Origin: a virus
Taxonomy: Duplodnaviria; Heunggongvirae; Uroviricota; Caudoviricetes
Virus record (IMG/VR): IMGVR_UViG_2778261527_000007
Reading direction: 5' to 3' (one strand)
Length of the DNA stretch: 12,961 bases
Of the stretch, positions 93 to 10,492 are shown piece after piece. The notes beneath the pieces are model-generated. The model did no database searches and had not been told where the DNA came from. It was given only the letters and a program-made list of their open reading frames with translations. Both the position numbers and the translations under genes were made by a program. Every line of letters starts with the position of its first letter. The first letter of the stretch is position 1.

Positions 93-1112
93 TTACTTCA
101 GCTTGACGTTCAGCGTGTAGTTCGGGCGCAGGTTCAGAGGGATGAAGCTCGCCTCCTGGTGAATGGTCACCATGCCGTAACGGTCAGTCATTACTTTCTG
201 GTAGAACGGGCTGATCTCGCCTTTCGCGGCGATGTCCTGATTACGGGAAGCCGGGCCGTGTACCAGTTTGAACGGGTTACGGTCAGCGCCGTTAAACTTA
301 GGAACGAACAGGCCGGAACCTTCTTCGCTTTCGTAGCGGTCATCGTCCGCCAGAATGAAAGTAATGTTGCCAATGCTGAAGGAGTCATAACCCGCAGTGT
401 TAACCGGGATCAGAGCGCCTTTTGCAGCTTCCGCCACTTTGTTGGTAATAAGGCTGGTTACTTCCGGGTGGCTCGCCAGTACGTCATACAGATCCGGGGA
501 GCAGAAGCAGAAGAAGCGGTCCAGATAGGAGCGGCTCGCGCCGTACTCTTTAACCAACATGCGGCGAATCTTCGCAAGCTGTGCATACACGTTAGCGCCT
601 GCTGAACCGTCCAGGTTGAAACTCAGCGGATCGGCACCCATCGCCGCGCGAAAGTCGATATCACCGTCGTCAGTCTTAGCCGCTTTCGCTTCCTGTTTGA
701 ACAGGGCGCGGGCCAGCGTACTTTCAACCGTTTCCAGGTGATGGTTACGCATACGGATAGCTTTAGACGCGATCACTTCAGAAATAGCCGCAACCTGATC
801 CGGGTTAGCCGGGCTGATCAGACCTTGCCAATCAGCGGTTTTTACGTCCGCTTCGGTGGCGTAGTGTGGGAGCTCCTGGTCACGCAACAGAGGCTTATCC
901 ATTTTGATGGAGTTAACTTCGGTGCCGTAGCGGGCTACCTGTTCCAGTTCAGAGACTTGAGTCTCTACGATGTCCAGAACTTGAGCGTTTGGAGTGGTGG
1001 AGTTAACACCGGAGAAGATACCCAGATCAGAGATCAGGTAATTACCCGCTGGCACTTGTTTAAGTGCCGCTACGGTGTCCAGCTTTTCAAACTGTTTAAA
1101 ATCAATAGCCAT
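93..1112 (-). CDS. Phage major capsid protein (339 aa; lambda gpE-type family suggested)
   Basis: 339-aa ORF with RBS AAGGAAAT just upstream of the ATG at 1112-1110. It lies 13 nt downstream of a ~120-aa head gene, the classic decoration-then-major-capsid arrangement; size and composition fit gpE-type capsid proteins. Family assignment is by recognition, not search. Confidence 0.7.
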   Translation of the reverse strand: MAIDFKQFEKLDTVAALKQVPAGNYLISDLGIFSGVNSTTPNAQVLDIVETQVSELEQVARYGTEVNSIKMDKPLLRDQELPHYATEADVKTADWQGLISPANPDQVAAISEVIASKAIRMRNHHLETVESTLARALFKQEAKAAKTDDGDIDFRAAMGADPLSFNLDGSAGANVYAQLAKIRRMLVKEYGASRSYLDRFFCFCSPDLYDVLASHPEVTSLITNKVAEAAKGALIPVNTAGYDSFSIGNITFILADDDRYESEEGSGLFVPKFNGADRNPFKLVHGPASRNQDIAAKGEISPFYQKVMTDRYGMVTIHQEASFIPLNLRPNYTLNVKLK

Positions 1113-1124
1113 TGTGTGATTTCC

Positions 1125-1496
1125 TTATGCTTTGAAGTAATCGGCGTTGATAGCCAGGCGAATATCACCGGAGGCTGTCAGCGCTTCCAGTGCGGCTTTT
1201 TTGCTCGCGGCGTCTTTAGCACGTAGGGCAAAATCGGTAATCACAACATGGCGATCCACGATAACCAGAGTCTTAGGCTTGCCATCGGCGGACATATTGG
1301 AAAGGTTGATGATCGGCTTGCCAGCGTCAGCGGCGGCGGAGTCGAACAGTGCAAAAGTTTTGCTGTCCAGGAGGTCACCGCAGAAGACGTCAGCCGGGAG
1401 GCTTGGGGCGGTGACTTCGGTGCGGTCAAACAGGCTGGAGGCGTAATTCACGATTACGTCACCTTGCGTTACCGGGTAGCGCTCGGAAGTTTTCAT
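1125..1496 (-). CDS. Small phage head protein, decoration-like (123 aa)
   Basis: Internal ATG at 1496-1494 preceded by AAGGAAAA, the same RBS context as the capsid gene; the longer track ORF (to 1640) has a Cys/Pro/Arg-rich N-terminal extension that is unlikely to be real. Ala/Ser-rich 123-aa protein immediately upstream of the capsid gene. Confidence 0.55.
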   Translation of the reverse strand: MKTSERYPVTQGDVIVNYASSLFDRTEVTAPSLPADVFCGDLLDSKTFALFDSAAADAGKPIINLSNMSADGKPKTLVIVDRHVVITDFALRAKDAASKKAALEALTASGDIRLAINADYFKA

Positions 1497-1689
1497 AAAG
1501 GTTTTCCTTATGGAGGGTTTTAGACGTGGAGAGAGTCCACAGGGTGATCCGGTGCAACGCCGGATATAAGGACCGCCACAGAGGACAATCCGAATTGTTG
1601 GAAGATGGGAGGCCGTGGGGTGAATAGAAGAGGGCGGCATCCGCGCCGCCCTTTCTAATCTGGCTCTCTCTCACCCTCTAGGGTGGGGG

Positions 1690-1709
1690 GAGGTGTAAAC
1701 CTCTTTTTT
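1690..1709 (+). terminator. Possible intrinsic terminator hairpin (GAGGU-GUAA-ACCUC followed by UUUUUU)
   Basis: 5-bp stem with GNRA-type tetraloop followed by six T. Nothing obviously coding upstream on +, so the role is unclear. Confidence 0.3.
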
Positions 1710-1767
1710 GTGGTCACTCACCCGCCAGCGTCACGGGAGCAACCGCCAGCCGATGGGTAAATAACCA

Positions 1768-1796
1768 CAAAAAAGAACCCGGTAGGAGAGACCGGG
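1768..1796 (-). terminator. Intrinsic terminator upstream of the head gene pair
   Basis: On the - strand: CCCGGU-CUCUCCU-ACCGGG perfect 6-bp GC-rich stem followed by UUCUUUUUUG. Sits ~270 bp upstream of the decoration-like gene start. Confidence 0.45.
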
Positions 1797-2697
1797 AGAA
1801 GACAATGTAACTTACTGTCTGATCACTTGTTTTCCTGTGTAGCCTCAGAGCCTTACATGATTTGCTTTCATGGTTCAGCAAAGAAGCCACAGAGGAAAAC
1901 GGGACGCAACCAACGCCCCGGAAACCATCGACACAAATCAACAGTTTATCGTTGAGACCAGGTAACCAGCCCGGCCCAACTGTGGACCCCTAAAGGGTCA
2001 ATACAATCGAAGGAGATTCCGCTTGTATTCTGAAGAGCCGCAGTTAGCGACGCTTTAAAATAGGGCCTGTGCCGCAAGCCCTATGATTAGAGGCATTTTG
2101 AATCGTAGGAATGTCATCAACTGGCGGAACTTGAGGAGAGGACCGCACACAAAGCATTCTGGCAAGTGGAGTTGAAAGAACGCTTTGGGTGAGGGCCGGG
2201 GACTTGCTGAAGGTTCCCGGCTCTCTTACAGACCCTGACAGGTTGGCTAAAACCCATGTTTCTGTACAGGTGTGAGGCGGCAAGCTGCAAAACGGCGATT
2301 TCGACATACTCACCATATCCCACACCATGTATATTAGTTTAACACGAATGATTATCATTTGCAATAAAAATTAATTGCATTGTGTTGTTTGATATGATAT
2401 GTGAGATTGAGGGCAGATCTGGCGGCAGGTACAGAGGAGCCACACAGAAGAGGGGCGGGAGCATCCCACAGGGGCCACAGGAAAGCCTCCACGGGGTTTT
2501 AATGGGGTAAGATGATAAATGACCTTGTCACAGTGGCGGACGCGCTGGAGAGCTTTACAGGAGGTTGTAGAGGGTGGAGGGATTATTGATTGATAATTGA
2601 ACAGGTGAGAGTGTAATTAATTTTTATTGACAGTCTATAAAGATCATGTTATTTGCGTGTGCATACGCACTCACGCCCGCGCCTCCGCGAACACATC

Positions 2698-2802
2698 TTT
2701 TAAATAAAAGATTTTTATTATAATCGTTCAATCGGACTTTGACAAGTCCTCTTTCACTCTTAAATAAAAGATCTTTTATATAATATCTATCGTTCAATAA
2801 TT
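2698..2802. repeat. AT-rich imperfect direct repeat (two ~40-bp copies, ~60 bp apart)
   Basis: TTAAATAAAAGAT(C)TTTTAT..TAAT..CGTTCAAT occurs at 2698-2735 and 2758-2802. A TTGACA hexamer lies between the copies (2739-2744). Confidence 0.5.
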
Positions 2803-2948
2803 AATCGCTTAGGCTCTTAATTATTTCACTCATATATTATTACCATTAAAACCTTCTCGGCCTGATCGGCCTTACCAGGTTTTAGGCCGTAGGCCTGTTC
2901 CCACAATGTGGAGTCTCGCCTGTGTGGCTCACTCCAGACAGGGACCCC

Positions 2949-3006
2949 GGAAATATTTTCCGGGCAGGGTGGAAGATTTTTCCGGCCTGTTAGGAAATAT
3001 TTTCCG
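2949..3006. repeat. Three phased 14-bp repeats GGAA(A/G)AT(A/T)TTTTCCG at 22-bp spacing
   Basis: Copies at 2949-2962, 2971-2984 and 2993-3006, each a near-palindrome (GGAAA..TTTCC). The 22-bp phasing equals two helical turns, typical of protein-binding arrays (operator, iteron or packaging-site type). Confidence 0.6.
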
Positions 3007-3414
3007 ACAATAAGACTATATATAAAACTACCCATAAGACTAACACCCAGGGGCCAGGTCAAGATCTTTAAGGGAGTGTTGGGGAAATCGTAGATTGATT
3101 GGTAAGAGACTGATCTCTGTTAAGCGTCTTACAGACGCGCCTCTTTGGCAGCGCTCGTACCAGCGAGCAAGACCCCTTTGGAACACCGCACGATGTAAGG
3201 TGACCTCTGGGCGGCGGGGTGGGGTCCCCGGCCCGGCATAACGTACAGAACCACAACCCACAGGAACCCACCTAAACGCGCCGCTGTGGCGCTCTCTCCT
3301 ACGTAGACAAGGAAACACCTTATAAACGCCCTCCGGCGCTCTGAGAGCCTTACAGGGGCTTTCTGTGCCTATAGCACAATAAACAAATGATCGCAAGATA
3401 AATCAATAAAGTTA

Positions 3415-3443
3415 TTGCGAATCATTGTCAAATAGTGTAAAAT
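3415..3443 (+). promoter_or_regulatory. Candidate sigma70 promoter for the + strand operon
   Basis: TTGCGA (3415-3420), 17-bp spacer, TAAAAT (3438-3443), ~75 bp upstream of the first ORF. A second candidate is TTGTGA (3449-3454) / TATATA (3472-3477). Confidence 0.3.
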
Positions 3444-3517
3444 AGATATTGTGACGGGGTAGTTAATCAGGTATATAAATCCCCATCATACTATAACCAA
3501 CCCAGCAGGAGAATGCA

Positions 3518-3943
3518 ATGAGTATTTACCTTGATGTTGAAAAAATGGTTGAACGTGTCGATCAGCGTGATCTGACCCGTAAGACCCTGACAGAAACCCG
3601 CAGCCGGATGAAAGCCGCCGGACGTATGAGAGAAGTAGAAGCGATTACGCAGGCCCTTGAATTGACCAAATCCAGTGCCTCCGGCGTTATGCGCCAGTCT
3701 CAGCGCCTCACAGGTAAAATTACAGAGATGGACGCAGAGAAGGCATTAGAGCTTAAAGCAACCGTTGCGCTGTTCGCTTCCAAGTCTACGGATCTGCAAG
3801 CCTCCATTGTGCTGGCGTTCCAATCCCTCTTTGAGGCTAAAGGCGTGCCGATGGAATATGACGAAGTGATGGCCTACATCATGTTGAATGCGGCGGATCA
3901 GTTTGAGCGTATCACCGGAGAGCTACCCGTAATCGTACATTAA
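3518..3943 (+). CDS. Hypothetical protein (141 aa)
   Basis: First gene of the operon; ATG preceded by AGGAG with a 6-nt spacer. No family recognised. Confidence 0.65.
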   Translation: MSIYLDVEKMVERVDQRDLTRKTLTETRSRMKAAGRMREVEAITQALELTKSSASGVMRQSQRLTGKITEMDAEKALELKATVALFASKSTDLQASIVLAFQSLFEAKGVPMEYDEVMAYIMLNAADQFERITGELPVIVH

Positions 3944-3972
3944 TTTTTAACTTACTTTTTGGAGAGGAAACA

Positions 3973-4158
3973 ATGAGCAAATATCAGCCTTATGTTGATT
4001 TGAGTGATTCCCCTGTGTTGTCAGCGTATGCACAGCAGACGATCAACCAGTTAGACCCCATCCTGTATAGCGACATTTACGAAATGTTGACGCAGGTTAG
4101 CCCCTCCCAAATGGTGACGATTGGCAACCCGGCTATTACCGCCCCGGCGTCATGGTGA
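3973..4158 (+). CDS. Hypothetical small protein (61 aa)
   Basis: ATG preceded by GGAGAGGA; tightly packed after the previous gene. Confidence 0.45.
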   Translation: MSKYQPYVDLSDSPVLSAYAQQTINQLDPILYSDIYEMLTQVSPSQMVTIGNPAITAPASW

Positions 4159-4220
4159 GGTGATTGGTTCGGCCTCAACCTCACCGCTGAAGACATCGCA
4201 GAATTAAAGGAGATTAGCCT

Positions 4221-4409
4221 GTGAGTAAAAATAAAGAGTTGGGGATCAGCTTCGATCCCTATGTGATGGAGCAGCTTTTCGCGTTGGCCTCCACCCGTGA
4301 ACATGGCAGCGTTCACACCATTGTTAAGAAAGCCGTTAGCCAGTACCTGAAAACCGTTAATTCCATCTCTGTTAAGGATTCCCAAAATGACAGCAGCCGC
4401 AGTAAGTAA
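4221..4409 (+). CDS. Ribbon-helix-helix (CopG/Arc-like) DNA-binding protein (62 aa, GTG start)
   Basis: GTG start preceded by AAGGAG. N-terminal pattern ISFDPYVMEQLFALASTREHGSVHTIVKKAVSQYLK fits the beta-strand/helix/loop/helix layout of RHH regulators. Confidence 0.5.
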   Translation: MSKNKELGISFDPYVMEQLFALASTREHGSVHTIVKKAVSQYLKTVNSISVKDSQNDSSRSK

Positions 4410-5049
4410 GCCATTTACCGCAATCCCGCATGACCTTGCGGACATTGAGCTGATCGGAGGCAAGGCGTTTACCATGAACATGGTTTACACCTACAGCCTG
4501 ATCAAAGGTTACCAGGACAATGGGCAAACGGCCTATTTCTCACAAGATCTTTTAGCCCGTCGCCTGGGGGCCACAGATCGAACCGTCCGCAACCTGTTGC
4601 GCGATATGTTGGAGATGGGTCTGATTAACAAGACCGGGCAGATCGGCGGCAAGACCTGCCATTACACAGTTAACCCGATCACCCCGGAAATGGTGGGAAC
4701 CCCTGAAGCCGCCAAACCTGAAGTAACCAAACCAACCGCAGCACCCCAACCGAAGGAGACCGTAGAGAATGCAGGAAGTAACCAGCCTGGAATTGTTAAG
4801 TGTGGATCTGAAAGTGTACATAGAAGCCGCCCGGCGTCGCCTGGAGCTTCTCCTGTGGACCACAGCGGGGGCGCTATTCGTCCCGCTCCTGTCCCTGTGC
4901 CAGTAGAGCAGGGGGCCGCAAACGATGATTTACGCAACCCTGTTATTAATTTTGTGGCTGGCTCTAATGTGATGATGGTCAACGGCTTGCCTGTTGAATA
5001 TCTGGAGCCAGAAGAAAGCGCCGTTGATCAGTTTGGTGATGCTTTCTAA
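4387..5049 (+). CDS. Winged-HTH (HTH_36-like) DNA-binding protein, possible replication initiator or organiser (220 aa)
   Basis: ATG preceded by AAGGA; overlaps the RHH gene by 23 nt. Motif AYFSQDLLARRLGATDRTVRNLLRDMLEMGLI resembles the HTH of phage/plasmid replication proteins, followed by a Pro/Ala-rich linker and an acidic C-terminal domain. Alternative start at ATG 4474. Confidence 0.6.
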   Translation: MTAAAVSKPFTAIPHDLADIELIGGKAFTMNMVYTYSLIKGYQDNGQTAYFSQDLLARRLGATDRTVRNLLRDMLEMGLINKTGQIGGKTCHYTVNPITPEMVGTPEAAKPEVTKPTAAPQPKETVENAGSNQPGIVKCGSESVHRSRPASPGASPVDHSGGAIRPAPVPVPVEQGAANDDLRNPVINFVAGSNVMMVNGLPVEYLEPEESAVDQFGDAF

Positions 5050-5125
5050 AAATCTGCAATTGATTTCCCAATAATAACACTATACACCAAACCCCCGCGC
5101 TTTACAACCCTCTGGAGACTCTCGC

Positions 5126-5692
5126 ATGAATGAATTTATTACAACCAAATTCAAAGCCTTATCCTCTGAGGAAGAGGCCGCAGTTAACGCACTGGCTGAG
5201 AAATTGGCAGCAAACAAGCCCCGCCGGATTATGGATGAGAGCCACTTAACCCCGGATCAAATCCTGAAGATCAAGCGGGCCTGTATTCAGGGCCACAGCG
5301 CTAAAGCCATCCAAGCGGCGTTTAATGTGTCGCTGGCTTACGTCCTGAAAGTAAAGCGCAGCCACAACCCCCAGAAGTACCAAAAGACCCCGCTAACTTT
5401 GGCTGAAAAAGGCGTTATGGCTAAACAGATGGAAGCCGACGGCCTGAGCCTCTCCAAAATGGCGGAACTCCTGGGGATTAACAGTAAGATGGTCTCCCTA
5501 CTTCTTACCCAACCTTCACCCCGTTACCTGGTGGAGCAAATGCTCCCGTATGACCAAGTTTTGCAGAATCTACGCAGCGCCCGCTATGTAGAAAACCCTG
5601 TATACAAAGAGGGGACGAATAAGCGCCGTGTGCGTCTAATCGTTTCTGAAGCACGTCAGCAGACCCGCCAGGCAATCATTAAATCCCGGTAA
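5126..5692 (+). CDS. DNA-binding protein with two predicted HTH motifs (188 aa)
   Basis: ATG preceded by GGAGA. Two HTH-like segments (..GHSAKAIQAAFNVSLAYVLKVKR.. and ..GLSLSKMAELLGINSKMVSLLL..) and a basic C-terminus. Confidence 0.6.
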   Translation: MNEFITTKFKALSSEEEAAVNALAEKLAANKPRRIMDESHLTPDQILKIKRACIQGHSAKAIQAAFNVSLAYVLKVKRSHNPQKYQKTPLTLAEKGVMAKQMEADGLSLSKMAELLGINSKMVSLLLTQPSPRYLVEQMLPYDQVLQNLRSARYVENPVYKEGTNKRRVRLIVSEARQQTRQAIIKSR

Positions 5693-5863
5693 CTATGCCC
5701 AACCCAACGGAATGGGGTCTAAAGGATTATTTAGGCTCCAAACTGGTTAAGCGTCAGACAAGACTCTCTAACTTTCTCGCCTCACTCCTCTACATCCCCT
5801 TTAAACCCGCCTCCCTCTTCCTGTGGGGTGTGGTAATCACTTTACTTATAAGGACCCTCTCAC

Positions 5864-6238
5864 ATGGAAGCATTTAAGAACCTCCTCAATCAGTTGGAAA
5901 TTCAGAAGGCAGAACAGCGCCAGCGGGAAGCCGAAGAGGCAACCAAACAGAACGAACTCCGCAAGGCACAGGCCGATCTGTCACTGGATGAGGCTATCGC
6001 TCTGTACGCCACACAGTTGGAAGCCTCCGCCAATGCCGCAGACAGCGCCCAGAAGGGCCGCGCCATTAAGAGCCGGGGAATTGCTCTGTGTCACAAGGAT
6101 CAGGGATTCAGCGCCAACGGTCGCCCGGTCTCTCTCCTGACCAAATCCGCAGACCTGCCAGCAGGTCACCGCCGGGTAATCATTAACAAGGCAGCAGGGC
6201 GCACCCTGAAGGCTATCAAACTGGAAGGGGATGAATAA
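5864..6238 (+). CDS. Hypothetical protein (124 aa), translationally coupled to the tape-measure-domain gene
   Basis: ATG preceded by AAGGA. Its stop TAA (6236-6238) overlaps the next ATG (6238-6240) as TAATG. N-terminus is coiled-coil-like. Confidence 0.6.
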   Translation: MEAFKNLLNQLEIQKAEQRQREAEEATKQNELRKAQADLSLDEAIALYATQLEASANAADSAQKGRAIKSRGIALCHKDQGFSANGRPVSLLTKSADLPAGHRRVIINKAAGRTLKAIKLEGDE

Positions 6239-8373
6239 TGAGCGGTAACGTGATCATTACCAAAACGATTAACCGGACCATGTTCACCACGGACGGGGCC
6301 AGCTATAAAAAGACAGTTGACCGTATCAAACAGGTAGGGAAAGAGTGGGACAAAGTAGCGTCCAAGATGAAACCGCTACGCCTCAAGTTTGAGGAAAACG
6401 CCTACACCAAGATCCGCCGGAAACAGCAGGACGCCGCCGCAAAAGCAGCACTGGCAGAAGCCAAAGCCAAAGCGGCAGCAGACGCCAAAGCAGCCAAAGC
6501 ACAGATCGCAGCGGAGCGTAAGATCCAGACAATCCGCGCTAAAGCTATCCGCTTCAGCACTTCAGCGGCTAACGCCAACGTGACCCCGGCCCAACGTGCT
6601 GGACACCTCCAGGAGTTTGGACAGCTTACGCGCCAGTATCACGCCGGGTCTATGGCATTGCAGGAATATAACGCCCGTGTGTCAAAACTTCAGCAAACCA
6701 TGCGCCAACAAGGCCGGGTAGGCATGAGGGGAGCCACAATTCCAGTAACCGCCAAAGTTAACAAACTGGACACCTCCATGATCGAGGGTGCAGGGGGGGC
6801 GATCACCATTGCCGCAACTGTGGCGCTGAGCGGCAAGATCATGACCACCGGGCAGGATTTTGAATCCGCGCTTTCTGGTCTGACAGCGATCACCGGTTCC
6901 ACAGATAAGGCCGCTAAAGAGTTTGATTATCTCCGTGATCAATCCAACCGTTTGGGGCTGGACCTCCTGAAGACTTCAAAGGATTACACTCAATTTGCCG
7001 CCGCTGTTGGTGACAAACTCCCTAAAGACCAGATGAGATCCATCTTTGAGGGTGCCAGTGAATGGGGCCTTGTTACTGGTGCAGACGCCGACGCACAAAG
7101 CCGCGCTTTGAAAGCACTTAACCAAATGATGAGTAAGGGAACGGTGATGAGTGAAGAACTCAAAGGCCAGCTTTCCGAAGCTCTCCCGGGCGCTGTGGGT
7201 CTGTTCGTTAAGGCTCTCAACCAGATGAAAGGGACAACCAACCTTACAGAAAAGGATCTGTTTGACCTGATGCAACAAGGGAAGCTGTTCTCTAAGGACA
7301 TCCTCCCGGAAGTGGCGAAACAGATGAAAGCCGCAGCTCGTAACGGCGGCGCTCTGGATAAGGCTATGAAGTCCAACCGGGCAAGTTGGCAGCGCCTGCA
7401 AACCAGTATGCAGAACGCTATGAATATCTTCTTTACTTCTGGCTTTGGTAACTCACTAACCAGCGCTTTCGACGCTATCAGCGCCGCTGTTAACGGCTCT
7501 GGTGGGGCCTTTGAGATGTTCGGGCATATCGCCGGGAAAATCGTTGAGGGTGCCACAGATGCGTTTACAGAGTTGCACGACACTGTGATCCTGACCTTCC
7601 GCATTATTGAGTATTACGCCGCTAAGATGGGGATCACTGGTGAGCAGCTTAAATCCTGGGGAGAAATGGCAGCATACGCCGCCGGGGTGGCTCTGTTCGC
7701 TGGCTCTATCTGGAAGTTGGGCGGGGCCTTTAAATGGTTGTTGACCATGCTCAACCCGCTAACCAAATTGCTGGGGGTCATGAAAGGGATCGCCGCTATT
7801 GGTGGCATTGAATCCGCTACAACTGGCGGATCTGGTGGGGAAGGTAAAGACAAGCCAAACAAACCGGGCCGGGGTCCGAAAGTTGGCAAGGTAGGCGGCG
7901 CGGCGGCTCTCTCTGGCGGTCCTGTTGGCTGGGGCATTGCGATCGGTTCGGTAGGTGGGGATTATGCCTGGGATAAAGTCATGGACGCTAACGACGCCAT
8001 GTATGGACAGGACACCACCGCCGGAGGCAATCTGAAGAAAGATAGCCCGCTGGGTAAACTGTGGGATTTCATCCACAGCCCAGACCTTCCGACTAATCCA
8101 GACTTTGCCAAACCAACAGATAAAACAGGGTGGGTAAGCTCTTACTCCAATCCGGGTTATGTTCCTCCTGCGCCGACGATTACAGCGCCACAGCTTAAAG
8201 TTGATATGGCAGGTAATCCACTGATGACGCCGCCAGCGTGGCTAAACCAGCCGCTTAACGTGAACGTCAATGTGAAAGTGCAGGATGGGCAGGTTAGGGA
8301 TCTGGTCCGCTCTGAAGTTGAGACCAACAACCAGCAGGCTTTCAACATGCTGATGCAGGGCGGGCCGAACTAA
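6238..8373 (+). CDS. Phage tail tape-measure-domain protein (711 aa)
   Basis: N-terminal Ala/Lys-rich coiled coil, then a region (..ADAQSRALKALNQMMSKGTVMSEELKGQLSEALPGAVGLFVKALNQM..) matching the conserved tape-measure domain as I recall it. C-terminal half has hydrophobic Gly-rich segments (..VGGAAALSGGPVGWGIAIGSVGG..) typical of tape-measure proteins. RBS AGGGGA. Confidence 0.75.
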   Translation: MSGNVIITKTINRTMFTTDGASYKKTVDRIKQVGKEWDKVASKMKPLRLKFEENAYTKIRRKQQDAAAKAALAEAKAKAAADAKAAKAQIAAERKIQTIRAKAIRFSTSAANANVTPAQRAGHLQEFGQLTRQYHAGSMALQEYNARVSKLQQTMRQQGRVGMRGATIPVTAKVNKLDTSMIEGAGGAITIAATVALSGKIMTTGQDFESALSGLTAITGSTDKAAKEFDYLRDQSNRLGLDLLKTSKDYTQFAAAVGDKLPKDQMRSIFEGASEWGLVTGADADAQSRALKALNQMMSKGTVMSEELKGQLSEALPGAVGLFVKALNQMKGTTNLTEKDLFDLMQQGKLFSKDILPEVAKQMKAAARNGGALDKAMKSNRASWQRLQTSMQNAMNIFFTSGFGNSLTSAFDAISAAVNGSGGAFEMFGHIAGKIVEGATDAFTELHDTVILTFRIIEYYAAKMGITGEQLKSWGEMAAYAAGVALFAGSIWKLGGAFKWLLTMLNPLTKLLGVMKGIAAIGGIESATTGGSGGEGKDKPNKPGRGPKVGKVGGAAALSGGPVGWGIAIGSVGGDYAWDKVMDANDAMYGQDTTAGGNLKKDSPLGKLWDFIHSPDLPTNPDFAKPTDKTGWVSSYSNPGYVPPAPTITAPQLKVDMAGNPLMTPPAWLNQPLNVNVNVKVQDGQVRDLVRSEVETNNQQAFNMLMQGGPN

Positions 8374-8389
8374 CCGCCCATACAAAAAA

Positions 8390-8419
8390 GGCTCCCCTAG
8401 TGGGAGCCTTTTCTCTTTT
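8390..8419. terminator. Bidirectional intrinsic terminator between the convergent tape-measure and recombinase genes
   Basis: GGCTCCC-CTAGT-GGGAGCC perfect 7-bp stem, flanked by an A-run (8384-8389) and a T-rich tail (8409-8419). Confidence 0.6.
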
Positions 8420-8442
8420 ATAACTCCTAATATCCAGGCTTT

Positions 8443-9009
8443 TCATAACAGATCTTCTATTGAATATTTATTACTGAAATCATCTACTTTGCGTTGTGTG
8501 GCCCCAATGTAATGGAGCGTACTGGATAACGATTTGTGCCCCAATGCCTTACTGATTACGGCTATATCCTCCCCATTGTCATAACCAATCGTTGGTTTAC
8601 TCTTCCTCATGCTGTGGGTCGAAAGATTCAGCCCCAGCTTTTCCCCGGCGTAGCTAATTTCCTCATGCAATTTGGAGCGGCTCACAGGTTTTCCCTTGCT
8701 CCTGTGGCTGTCCAACTGTAAGAGGTATACATGATCAGGGTTCGCCTCTCTCCGGGCCGCTATGATGCGTTTAGCGGTATCGGTGAGCCTCACCCGGACA
8801 GATTCACCCGTTTTCTGTTGGGACAGGACAAGGTGATCGCCTTTGATGTCGTCATAACGGATAGAGCGCAGATCCGACACCCTCAGCATTAATTCATAAC
8901 CCAGCAACCAGGCGTCACGGTACAGCGTCAGCCCCTTGCCCTGTTTGAGTAGCTCAACCGCTACCGCTTTCACTTCCTGAACTGATTTACAGCCCTCTAC
9001 GAAATTCAT
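8443..9009 (-). CDS. Tyrosine recombinase, integrase catalytic domain only (188 aa; FimB/FimE-sized)
   Basis: Strong RBS GGAGGG 5 nt before the ATG. All catalytic signature residues of lambda-Int-type recombinases are present in order: R (LRVSDL), K (QQKTG), H-x-x-R (HSMRKS), H and Y (LGHKSLSSTLHY). There is no room for N-terminal arm- or core-binding domains. Confidence 0.75.
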   Translation of the reverse strand: MNFVEGCKSVQEVKAVAVELLKQGKGLTLYRDAWLLGYELMLRVSDLRSIRYDDIKGDHLVLSQQKTGESVRVRLTDTAKRIIAARREANPDHVYLLQLDSHRSKGKPVSRSKLHEEISYAGEKLGLNLSTHSMRKSKPTIGYDNGEDIAVISKALGHKSLSSTLHYIGATQRKVDDFSNKYSIEDLL

Positions 9010-10217: not shown

Positions 10218-10366
10218 GTGCCTGCCATTTATCTGTGGGTCACAACGTGAGACACAAACTGGGACACAGAGGATTTTTTAGGGTTGAGTCTTTGGCTTCC
10301 CGCTGGCATGATCCAGAACAGGGATTAACGGGACGTTAATCGCAAGCTTTTGATTTTGTTTTATTT

Positions 10367-10492
10367 GACTCGGGGTGCCCTTCTTAAATGAAGGCTGAGA
10401 AATACCCGTATTACCTGATCTGGATAATGCCAGCGTAGGGAAGTCACGGACCACCAGGTCATTGCTTCTTCACGTTATGGCAGGAGCAAACT
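10367..10492 (+). promoter_or_regulatory. TPP (THI-box) riboswitch in the thiM leader
   Basis: Aptamer (about 10367-10445) GACUCGGGGUGCCCUUC..GGCUGAGAAAUACCCGUAUUACCUGAUCUGGAUAAUGCCAGCGUAGGGAAGUC is near-identical to the E. coli thiM TPP aptamer as recalled, including the CUGAGA and ACCUGAUCUGGAUAAUGCCAGCGUAGGGAA elements. Expression platform runs to the thiM SD and ATG. Confidence 0.9.

What the first reader, a model, noticed from the sequence alone, without database searches (positions are those of the whole stretch)
2698..2802. AT-rich tandem duplication with an embedded TTGACA
Two ~40-bp imperfect direct repeats about 60 bp apart in the most AT-rich part of the non-coding stretch, immediately upstream of the phased repeat array. 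AT-rich direct repeats next to protein-binding arrays are a classic origin-of-replication or complex-promoter signature.
Basis: seen in the sequence. Interest (0 to 1): 0.35.

Follow-up and report, generated by a model that had tools for sequence, protein, structure and literature searches.

The report
Duplicated AT-rich box beside satellite origin
The two AT-rich repeats are real, but they are a lineage-specific duplication inside the large gene-free control region of an uncharacterised 13-kb phage-satellite-like island; they most likely form a promoter module next to the island's replication origin, not the origin's core.

Summary
Copy A (2697-2732) and copy B (2757-2798) match at 35 of 36 aligned bases with a 60-bp period, far beyond shuffles. 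A hairpin between them carries TTGACA in its loop. This is the least stable DNA in the window.

The window is part of a ~13-kb satellite-like island of Enterobacterales. It encodes a lambda E-like capsid protein, a D-like protein, a tape measure protein and an O-like winged-helix protein. All relatives fetched keep a 1.75-2.05-kb gene-free region.

The phased array starts 145 bp to the right (sites at 2949-3005). It behaves as an iteron set. Spacings are multiples of about 11 bp, and its sequence follows the recognition helix of the O-like protein. That protein's best fold matches are RepA_N plasmid initiators, though weakly.

Copy A and the hairpin occur in only 3 of 15 distinct relatives. 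Only the 3' part of copy B and the adjoining inverted repeat are conserved across the family. TTGACA has no usable -10 on the + strand. On the - strand, TTGTCA-17-TATAAT scores 11/12, the only such hit in the window.

The best reading is a duplicated promoter or operator box in the easily melted flank of the origin. The origin reading is partly supported. Nothing is experimentally tested.

The parts
2697..2732 (+). Copy A of the AT-rich direct repeat. It is lineage-specific. It contains ATTATAAT, which gives a perfect TATAAT on both strands.
   Evidence: It is present only in the window, L004 and L018.
2734..2749 (.). Hairpin GGACTT-TGAC-AAGTCC between the copies. TTGACA (+) is at 2739-2744 and TTGTCA (-) at 2745-2740.
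   Evidence: It is lineage-specific.
2717..2745 (-). Predicted sigma-70 promoter pointing left: -35 TTGTCA (2745-2740), a 17-bp spacer, -10 TATAAT (2722-2717). The expected transcription start is near 2710.
   Evidence: scores it 11/12. It is the only hit of 11/12 or better in the window, and about 2.5% of shuffles reach that score. The same site is found in L018.
2757..2798 (+). Copy B of the repeat. It has a GATC-centred 24-bp near-palindrome (2760-2783) and TATAAT at 2779-2784. Its 3' part (TATAAT...TTCAATAA) is conserved across the family.
   Evidence: (I12).
2796..2825 (.). Conserved inverted repeat AATAATTAATC-N8-TCTTAATTATT. The arms are conserved in all relatives and the 8-bp spacer varies. 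This looks like an operator or a recombination-core-like site.
2846..2936 (+). Conserved G+C-rich hairpin block (AAAACCTT...AGGTTTT, GGCC-N3-GGCC, CCAC-N3-GTGG). Stems show compensatory changes, and the G-U pattern slightly favours the + strand.
2949..3005 (.). Three 13-bp palindromes (GGAAATATTTTCC, GGAAGATTTTTCC, GGAAATATTTTCC) spaced 22 bp apart. These are the proposed iterons of the O-like winged-helix protein.
3010..3042 (+). Three ATAAGACTA-type units with a 12-bp period, abutting the iterons (the flank 3008-3046 is 72% A+T). They are conserved family-wide and are the alternative candidate for the unwinding element.
4387..5049 (+). 220-aa HTH_36 / O-like winged-helix protein, the proposed initiator that binds the array.
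2336..2364 (-). Family-conserved leftward promoter P_left (-35 TTGCAA 2364-2359, -10 TAAACT 2341-2336). It heads the roughly 830-nt structured leader of the D-like and capsid genes.
3415..3443 (+). Family-conserved rightward promoter P_right (TTGCGA-17-TAAAAT), upstream of the 141-aa gene and the replication and tail genes.
2612..2632 (+). Mirror copy of the P_left -35 module (TGTAATTAATTTTTATTGACA). It is the right arm of the 18-nt inverted repeat 2362-2379 / 2612-2629 and is part of the same lineage-specific segment (2606-2776).
   Evidence: (I3).

Best explanation
The repeat is a lineage-specific tandem duplication of a family-conserved AT-rich box (TATAAT, then a few bases, then CGTTCAAT). 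The box sits in the 1.9-kb gene-free control and origin region of a ~13-kb phage-satellite-like island.

The repeat is not the protein-binding array and probably not the core of the origin. The array 145 bp to its right is the iteron set of the island's O-like (possibly RepA_N-like) winged-helix protein.

In this lineage the duplication and the hairpin between the copies assemble a near-consensus sigma-70 promoter that fires leftward. Its -35 (TTGTCA) lies in the hairpin and its -10 (TATAAT) lies in copy A. The conserved half (the 3' part of copy B plus the 11-8-11 inverted repeat) looks like an operator within an easily melted tract. The segment therefore most likely works as a promoter and operator module in the low-stability flank of the origin. 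Transcription starting in or passing through it could feed the long leader of the capsid operon, help origin opening, or both.

Shown here: the repeat, its phylogenetic distribution, the promoter match, the low duplex stability, and the covariation between iterons and the protein's recognition helix. Inferred: promoter activity, origin function, and any coupling between the two.
For: The repeat is significant. The minus-strand hit TTGTCA-17-TATAAT scores 11/12, is the only hit of 11/12 or better in 12,961 bp, and is reached in only about 2.5% of shuffles. It is retained in the lineage relative L018. That whole segment is 92-94% identical in L004 and L018.

The lineage-specific segment 2606-2776 also holds a mirror copy of the conserved P_left -35 module (I3), so it is built from promoter pieces. 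A perfect or near-perfect TATAAT at the copy-B position, TTCAATAA, and the arms of the inverted repeat are conserved in all 15 distinct relatives, while the 8-bp spacer varies.

Hairpins with compensatory changes lie on both sides of the tract. Most relatives have a + strand terminator-like hairpin, again with compensatory changes, near window position 3150-3185. This suggests a transcription unit that starts in or near the tract.

The tract is the least stable DNA of the window, and the homologous spot is least stable in 7 of 10 relatives.

The array behaves as iterons. Spacings are 22, 33 and 44 bp. Its sequence follows the recognition helix even where the genes in between are divergent; a Mantel test gives rho 0.35, p 0.004. 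PHROG matches are to O-like replication initiators. The top and longest Foldseek hits are the RepA_N initiator N-terminal domains 4pql, 4pt7 and 5kbj.
Against: No transcription start or replication data exist. The strong promoter, copy A and the hairpin are present in only 3 of 15 distinct relatives, so they cannot be essential to the family. AT-rich DNA produces promoter-like hexamers by chance; shuffles give a match of 10/12 or better in 24% of trials. No ORF and no known RNA family lies downstream of the predicted start. No conserved -35 accompanies the conserved TATAAT on the + strand (by inspection). The initiator assignment is soft: Pfam gives only HTH_36, with weak MarR, DnaD_N, RP-C and Phage_rep_O hits and no listed RepA_N hit, and Foldseek E-values are 0.009 or weaker.
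Confidence: 0.4

Rival explanations
1. The AT-rich tract, lengthened here by the duplication, is the DNA unwinding element of an iteron-type origin. The O-like protein bound to the phased iterons would melt it, and host or helper-phage replication proteins would load there.
For: It is the least stable 60-mer of the window, and the homologous site is least stable in 7 of 10 relatives and in the top three in all 10. It lies within 100-250 bp of iterons that co-vary with an initiator-like protein. Copy B contains GATCTTTTATATA, which matches 9 of the 11 specified positions of the oriC 13-mer consensus GATCTnTTnTTTT as I recall it (own knowledge, by eye).
Against: A 100-bp conserved G+C-rich block separates the tract from the iterons. 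A family-conserved AT-rich triple 12-mer (3010-3042) abuts the last iteron, which is the usual position of an unwinding element in iteron replicons and in lambda ori (own knowledge). The tract conserves specific sequence (TTCAATAA, AATTATTTC), not just A+T content. DnaA-box matches are not enriched and there is no IHF consensus in or near the tract. The duplication itself is absent from most relatives.
Confidence: 0.25
2. The duplication is a neutral or nearly neutral rearrangement scar. It would be a segmental duplication in a recombination-prone mosaic junction, with no function beyond being AT-rich spacer, perhaps coated by H-NS.
For: It is present in only 3 of 15 distinct relatives. It lies in the most variable part of the gene-free region, where column identity is 0.2-0.55 over 2377-2776. 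The segment is assembled from copies of neighbouring sequence: an inverted copy of the P_left module and a direct copy of the AT box.
Against: The segment is kept at 92-94% identity across three genera (Escherichia, Pectobacterium, Pluralibacter). An 11/12 promoter match is unlikely by chance at about 2.5%.
Confidence: 0.2
3. The conserved 11-8-11 inverted repeat next to copy B (2796-2825), with the AT box, is a site-specific recombination or DNA-bending site. It could be a multimer-resolution or inversion site for the island's 188-aa tyrosine recombinase, or an accessory bending site for packaging at the nearby cos-like motif.
For: The anatomy of conserved arms with a variable 8-bp spacer matches tyrosine-recombinase core sites such as loxP and FRT (own knowledge). 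The island encodes a FimB/E-sized recombinase with weak hits to invertase models. An invariant 16-mer containing GGGCGGCG lies at 3200-3215.
Against: No 188-aa recombinase is called within the fetched parts of L008, L014 and L016, which still have the inverted repeat. The arms do not resemble Xer sites (own knowledge). There is no IHF consensus in or near the finding. No relative shows an inverted orientation. There is no extended similarity to lambda cos.
Confidence: 0.08

Closest known systems
Origin region of Vibrio cholerae PLE satellites: a RepA_N initiator plus iterons in a 2.7-kb non-coding region (PMC7145576, PMC8263062)
   Same: Both are phage satellites of comparable size (about 13 kb here, 18 kb for PLE) with a very large gene-free region holding several repeat types. 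In both, semi-palindromic iterons whose inverted halves converge on an A/T tract lie away from the initiator gene. In both, the initiator's N-terminal winged helix and the iterons swap together as a module between otherwise different backbones (here). Neither element encodes a helicase or primase. The best fold matches here (4pt7 and related entries) belong to the same staphylococcal RepA_N structures that the PLE paper cites as its matches.
   Different: There is no detectable sequence relationship. No RepA_N hit was listed by Pfam, and the host clade and gene content differ (a lambda E-like capsid protein, a D-like protein and a tape measure protein here). In PLE only the iteron-bearing part of the non-coding region was needed for replication. 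No AT-rich duplicated promoter box came up in the passages of those papers that I searched. Nothing here is experimentally tested.
Lambda ori with the O protein, and iteron plasmid origins such as pSC101, R6K gamma, P1 and RK2 (own knowledge)
   Same: All have phased, dyad-symmetric initiator sites next to an AT-rich, easily melted tract. The initiator has an N-terminal winged helix, a flexible linker and a short C-terminal tail. Lambda replication needs transcription nearby.
   Different: Lambda iterons lie inside the O gene with the AT tract directly adjoining. Here the array lies 1.4 kb upstream of the gene, and the AT tract of the finding is 90-145 bp away behind a G+C-rich hairpin block. 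No DnaA or IHF sites were detected in the finding.
SaPI origin: two iteron sets flanking an AT-rich region of about 80 bp (own knowledge; Ubeda et al. 2007)
   Same: It is a satellite origin made of iterons plus an AT-rich region, specific to the island's own initiator.
   Different: The SaPI AT region is flanked by iterons on both sides and the initiator is a helicase. Here iterons are on one side only and no helicase is encoded.
Sigma-70 promoter regions with operators (own knowledge)
   Same: There is a near-consensus -35 and -10 with a 17-bp spacer, a flanking inverted repeat, and A-tract-rich upstream DNA.
   Different: The strong promoter is confined to one lineage, and no downstream gene or known RNA is identifiable.

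Membership tests
Iteron-type theta origin | Several phased copies of an initiator-binding repeat | tested here: met
   There are three sites at 2949, 2971 and 2993 (22-bp spacing). Relatives have 22, 33 and 44-46-bp spacings. This applies to the neighbouring array, not to the finding itself.
Iteron-type theta origin | A cognate initiator encoded by the element, with specificity matched to the repeats | tested here: inconclusive
   The recognition helix and the iteron sequence co-vary (Mantel p 0.004). The protein is only weakly assignable to initiators.
Iteron-type theta origin | An AT-rich unwinding element adjoining the iterons | tested here: inconclusive
   The finding is the least stable DNA but lies 145 bp away. 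A second AT-rich triple 12-mer abuts the iterons.
Iteron-type theta origin | Host-factor sites (DnaA boxes, IHF) | tested here: not met
   DnaA-box matches are not enriched: 26 against 22 expected, none with zero mismatches. There is no IHF consensus in 2300-3500.
Iteron-type theta origin | Supports replication when the initiator is supplied | not testable with these tools
   This needs a cloned-fragment replication assay.
Sigma-70 promoter | -35 and -10 hexamers with a 16-18-bp spacer | tested here: met
   The - strand has TTGTCA-17-TATAAT, 11/12. The + strand TTGACA pairs only with AATAAA or TAAATA.
Sigma-70 promoter | Conserved in related elements | tested here: not met
   It is present in the window, L004 and L018 only, and absent from 12 of 15 distinct relatives.
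Sigma-70 promoter | A mapped transcription start | not testable with these tools
   No transcript data are available.
RepA_N initiator family (for the array-binding protein) | A match to the RepA_N sequence family (PF06970) | tested here: not met
   All 26 homologues hit HTH_36. There are weak MarR_2, DnaD_N, RP-C and Phage_rep_O hits. RepA_N is not among the 25 families listed of 35 matched.
RepA_N initiator family (for the array-binding protein) | The fold of the N-terminal domain | tested here: inconclusive
   The N-terminal domain is predicted at pLDDT of about 90. The best and longest Foldseek matches are 4pql, 4pt7 and 5kbj, with E 0.009-0.04 and TM-score about 0.49 (normalised to the target).
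RepA_N initiator family (for the array-binding protein) | Semi-palindromic iterons converging on an A/T tract | tested here: met
   Examples are GGAAATATTTTCC, GGCAAAATCTGCC and GTCATTTTGAC. The feature is as described in PMC7145576.
Lambda-type cos site (for the nearby invariant motif) | Match to the cosN cohesive-end sequence and to the flanking cosQ and cosB | tested here: not met
   Only GGGCGGCG plus the last base, 9 of 12, matches lambda GGGCGGCGACCT. There is no extended similarity to lambda cos: score 24 against shuffles of 20.4 +/- 2.3. There is no enterobacterial phage hit.
Tyrosine-recombinase core site (for the inverted repeat 2796-2825) | Inverted arms around a 6-8-bp overlap region, with a cognate recombinase present | tested here: inconclusive
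   The 11-8-11 anatomy is conserved. No small recombinase is called within the fetched parts of several relatives that keep the site.

The most novel reading that the evidence does not exclude
The 1.9-kb gene-free region is the multifunctional hub of an undescribed family of Enterobacterales phage satellites that encode their own capsid, decoration and tape measure proteins. In this reading it holds an exchangeable iteron and initiator replicon module and a cos-like packaging site. It also holds a long riboregulated (terminator/antiterminator) leader of the capsid operon. The AT-rich box would then be a convergent-promoter switch whose transcription gates origin firing against late gene expression.
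Probability: 0.15. Interest if true: 0.65.

Novelty: new member of a known kind. Interest (0 to 1): 0.35.

Why it matters
On its own, the repeat is an ordinary feature of a control region. Its value is as a marker of a conserved 1.9-kb non-coding hub in a widespread mobile island of Escherichia, Enterobacter, Citrobacter, Cronobacter, Pantoea, Pectobacterium and Salmonella. My literature searches did not find this island family described. If the origin and promoter assignments hold, the island would be a second example, after Vibrio PLE, of a satellite with a swappable iteron and initiator module placed in a giant non-coding region. It would also give concrete targets (promoter, iterons, AT tracts) for building minimal replicons and for finding the helper phage.

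Tried and rejected
- Rfam scan of the whole window at E<=1: only the thiM TPP riboswitch and a spurious Phe-leader hit; nothing in the gene-free region.
- BLAST of 2300-3500 against phage and plasmid collections: no match.
- An 81-nt query around the invariant motif against phages: only chance hits in unrelated phages.
- Alignment to the lambda cos junction: not above shuffles.
- Pattern scan for GTGACNTCTGGGCGGC in IMG/VR: 56 hits, of which only 4 are family members; no helper-phage cos site was recognised.
- Scans for the 16-nt hairpin GGACTTTGACAAGTCC in viral and genome collections: chance hits only, apart from the already known Pectobacterium locus.
- First Mantel test, using whole-domain identity and 9-mers over the whole array: not significant (rho 0.14, p 0.16). 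The arrays carry extra foreign sites. The test restricted to the helix-turn-helix segment and the proximal 60 nt was significant.
- Terminal-repeat check of the 13.5-kb IMG/VR contig L024: no sign of circularity.
- Single-sequence RNA folding of 2335-2712 on either strand and of 2846-3200: z-scores of -1.3 to -2.9, not decisive.
- Sequence search of the O-like protein against the PDB: nothing significant.
- The search for related loci in the one-genome-per-species collection: only one locus.
- Literature searches for a described satellite family with capsid plus tape measure genes: none found.

Full report
**Observation.** Copy A is 2697-2732 and copy B is 2757-2798. They align with 35 identities in 36 aligned positions plus 6 gap positions, 60 bp apart. 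The local alignment score is 24, against 9.2 +/- 1.8 (maximum 18) in 2000 dinucleotide-preserving shuffles. The ungapped 28-nt core is 86% identical.

Between the copies lies the hairpin GGACTT-TGAC-AAGTCC (2734-2749), with TTGACA at 2739-2744. The stretch is 77% A+T. The 60-mer 2747-2806 is the least stable in the entire 12,961-bp window, at -62.8 kcal/mol against a mean of -84.1 and sd 6.0.

One detail is wrong. The phased array does not follow immediately. Its sites are at 2949-3005, 145 bp from the end of the finding. A conserved G+C-rich block lies in between.

**Context.** The window is the right part of a chromosomal island of about 12 kb inserted between rcnR and thiM. Megablast found it in 7 of 5,426 complete E. 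coli genomes, and a more sensitive search found it in 9.

The island encodes:
- an integrase and a variable cargo gene, outside the window;
- a lambda E-like major capsid protein (93-1112, - strand) and a weakly D-like protein;
- small proteins;
- a 220-aa HTH_36 protein with PHROG matches to O-like replication initiators (4387-5049);
- a 188-aa DNA-binding protein and a phiTE_211-like protein;
- a 711-aa tape measure protein and a 188-aa tyrosine recombinase.

Homologues of the 141-aa protein occur in Escherichia, Enterobacter, Citrobacter, Cronobacter, Pantoea, Pectobacterium, Pluralibacter, Klebsiella and Salmonella, often on contigs of 13-14 kb.

In every relative examined, the D-like gene and the 141-aa gene are separated by 1.75-2.05 kb in which no gene is called. 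My literature searches did not find a description of this island family.

**Comparative anatomy of the gene-free region.** I aligned ten divergent relatives (58-92% identity to the window over this region). The alignment shows conserved blocks at 1697-1960, 2137-2376, 2777-2936, 2997-3076 and 3177-3316. It shows two variable blocks, at 2377-2776 and 2937-2996.

Two conserved divergent promoters frame a central region of about 1 kb:
- P_left on the - strand: TTGCAA 2364-2359, a 17-bp spacer, TAAACT 2341-2336.
- P_right on the + strand: TTGCGA 3415, a 17-bp spacer, TAAAAT 3443.

The finding straddles a boundary between blocks. Copy A, the hairpin and the 5' part of copy B belong to a 171-bp segment (2606-2776). 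Only 3 of 15 distinct relatives carry it: the window, Pectobacterium L004 and Pluralibacter L018, at 92-94% identity. The other twelve carry an unrelated 85-bp segment containing a G+C hairpin (AAGACC...GGTCTT).

The following features are conserved in all 15 relatives:
- the 3' part of copy B: a TATAAT or near-TATAAT, followed by TTCAATAA;
- an inverted repeat with conserved 11-bp arms and a variable 8-bp spacer (2796-2825);
- a hairpin block at 2846-2936 whose stems show compensatory changes (GGCC/GGCC, GCCC/GGGC, ACCCG/CGGGT), with a G-U pattern that slightly favours the + strand.

The lineage-specific segment also begins with a mirror copy of the P_left -35 module (inverted repeat 2362-2379 / 2612-2629, 94% complementary). 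It therefore looks assembled from duplicated neighbouring promoter pieces.

**The neighbouring array is an iteron set.** The array is hypervariable between elements. Examples are GGAAATATTTTCC, GGTCACATTGGACC, GGCAAAATCTGCC, CTTAAATTTCTTTAG, GTAAAGAAATCAGAC and GTCATTTTGAC. The copies nearest the conserved right flank are spaced by 22, 33 or 44-46 bp, multiples of about one helical turn.

The repeat type follows the recognition helix of the 220-aa protein:
- TDR[TS]VRNLLRDM goes with GGAAATATTTTCC (window, L014, L059).
- TRQTV[IV]KLL goes with GTAAAGAAATCA[GT]AC, in either orientation (L018, L076).
- SLRTARNVIG goes with GGCAAAATCTGCC (L005, L013).
- SRSTVKRLVNEM goes with GGTCACATTGGACC (L002, L004, L024).

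The match holds even though the array and the gene are 1.4 kb apart and the genes between them have different histories. The window and L014 share 83% identity in the N-terminal domain, but only 69%, 52% and 42% in the three intervening proteins. The window and L004 share almost everything else, yet differ in both the helix and the iterons.

A Mantel test of the helix-turn-helix segment against the proximal 60 nt of the array gives rho 0.35, p 0.004. A cruder version of the test was not significant.

The N-terminal domain is predicted confidently as an extended winged helix. Its best and longest Foldseek matches are the staphylococcal RepA_N initiator N-terminal domains 4pql, 4pt7 and 5kbj. 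The E-values are only 0.009-0.04. Sequence profiles give HTH_36 plus weak MarR, DnaD_N, RP-C and Phage_rep_O hits.

I therefore take the array to be the binding sites of this protein (well supported). I take the protein to be a replication initiator (probable, not shown).

**What the AT-rich repeat does.** Three readings fit parts of the evidence.

(a) Promoter and operator module.
- On the - strand, TTGTCA (2745-2740), a 17-bp spacer and TATAAT (2722-2717) match 11 of 12 positions. This is the only such hit in the window, and 2.5% of shuffles of the local AT-rich sequence reach it. L018 retains it.
- The conserved inverted repeat next to copy B has the look of an operator.
- Most relatives carry a + strand terminator-like hairpin, with compensatory changes, near window position 3150-3185. 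This suggests a rightward transcription unit that starts in or near the tract and crosses the iterons.

(b) Unwinding element of the origin.
- The homologous spot is the least stable DNA of the gene-free region in 7 of 10 relatives and in the top three in all 10.
- Against this, it is separated from the iterons by the hairpin block.
- Three conserved ATAAGACTA units with a 12-bp period (3010-3042) abut the last iteron. That is where unwinding elements usually sit.
- There are no extra iterons elsewhere, no DnaA-box enrichment, and no IHF consensus in or near the tract.

(c) Neutral rearrangement.
- The duplication is confined to one lineage and lies in the most variable part of the region.

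I rank (a) first at 0.40, (b) at 0.25 and (c) at 0.20. A recombination or bending site ranks at 0.08. Readings (a) and (b) are not mutually exclusive. Lambda replication needs nearby transcription to activate its origin (own knowledge).

**Comparison with known systems.** The nearest described system is the replicon of the Vibrio cholerae PLE satellites. It has a RepA_N initiator, semi-palindromic iterons whose inverted halves converge on an A/T tract, and a 2.7-kb non-coding region holding four repeat types. Only the iteron-bearing part of that region is needed for replication. The initiator N-terminal domain and the origin are exchanged as a module between PLEs (PMC7145576, PMC8263062).

The present family resembles PLE in all these architectural respects. 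It shares no detectable sequence similarity, no RepA_N hit was listed by Pfam, and the gene content is different. Lambda ori, iteron plasmids and the SaPI origin share the general logic of iterons plus an AT tract but differ in layout; the membership table gives the details.

The repeat itself is thus an ordinary kind of feature (duplicated AT-rich promoter or origin-flank DNA) in a new member of a known kind of system.

**Verdict.** Interest is moderate to low for the finding itself (0.35). The surrounding non-coding hub deserves more attention than the repeat; the list of things noticed in passing gives the reasons. All functional statements are inferences from sequence and comparison. The decisive experiments are transcription-start mapping and a deletion series in a minimal replicon.

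Noticed in passing
window 1497-2335 (- strand): The roughly 830-nt stretch between P_left and the D-like and capsid genes is a conserved, highly structured leader. In 1695-1965 alone there are 61 predicted pairs, 15 with compensatory changes, and many G-U pairs on the - strand. It includes terminator-like hairpins (1920-1900, 1796-1778, 1652-1631). The U-tract of the first is also part of the next long stem, which looks like a terminator/antiterminator arrangement. No Rfam family matches.
   Followed up: partly
window 3200-3216: GTGAC[C/A]TCTGGGCGGC is invariant in all ten aligned relatives and is the most conserved spot of the 1.9-kb region. It contains GGGCGGCG, the first 8 bases of the lambda cohesive end. 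It may be the packaging (cos) site for a lambdoid helper phage. No extended similarity to lambda cos was found, and no matching phage was found.
   Followed up: partly
window 2949-3005 and 4387-5049; loci L002-L076: The palindrome array and the N-terminal winged helix of the 220-aa protein are exchanged together between otherwise divergent islands. Some arrays also carry sites of other specificity types; for example L005, L018 and L052 keep one GGAAATATTTTCC.
   Followed up: yes
window 3010-3042: Three ATAAGACTA-type units with a 12-bp period sit directly to the right of the last iteron. They are conserved family-wide regardless of iteron type. They are a candidate unwinding element, or binding sites for a conserved protein.
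   Followed up: partly
window 2362-2379 / 2612-2629 and 8443-9009: An 18-nt inverted repeat (94% complementary) brackets a 232-bp purine-rich segment next to P_left. The island encodes a FimB/E-sized (188-aa) tyrosine recombinase with weak hits to DNA-invertase models. An invertible promoter switch is conceivable, but no relative shows the opposite orientation, and relative L002, which has the recombinase, lacks the right arm.
   Followed up: partly
window 93-9009; L001, L002, L079-L081: The island combines a lambda E-like capsid protein, a D-like protein, a phiTE_211-like protein and a tape measure protein. The annotated parts show no portal, terminase, helicase or primase. Variable cargo genes occupy positions outside the conserved core: an ATP-dependent nuclease next to the integrase, and Abi_C or DUF4145 proteins in other relatives. 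Many assemblies give it as a 13-14-kb contig. This looks like an undescribed phage-satellite family.
   Followed up: partly
window 4387-5049 (protein C-terminus): After a disordered Pro/Ala-rich linker, the O-like proteins end in one of two short tails with an acidic-aromatic tip (...DQFGDAF or ...DLDPAF). This is reminiscent of the C-terminal tip of SSB and might recruit host replication proteins. This is pure speculation.
   Followed up: no
L005 4653-4672, L008 4586-4604 (about window 3150-3185): Most relatives have a hairpin with compensatory changes followed by TTTTCTTTTCTGC, a terminator-like site on the + strand, just before the invariant motif. The window, L004 and L016 have the hairpin but no T-run.
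   Followed up: partly
window 10361-10458: A TPP riboswitch (75 bits) lies upstream of thiM. It is part of the chromosomal flank and is already known.
   Followed up: yes
window 8382-8397: A G+C-rich hairpin with a T-run lies between the tape measure gene and the recombinase gene. It was picked up as a sub-threshold Phe-leader hit and is probably an intrinsic terminator.
   Followed up: no
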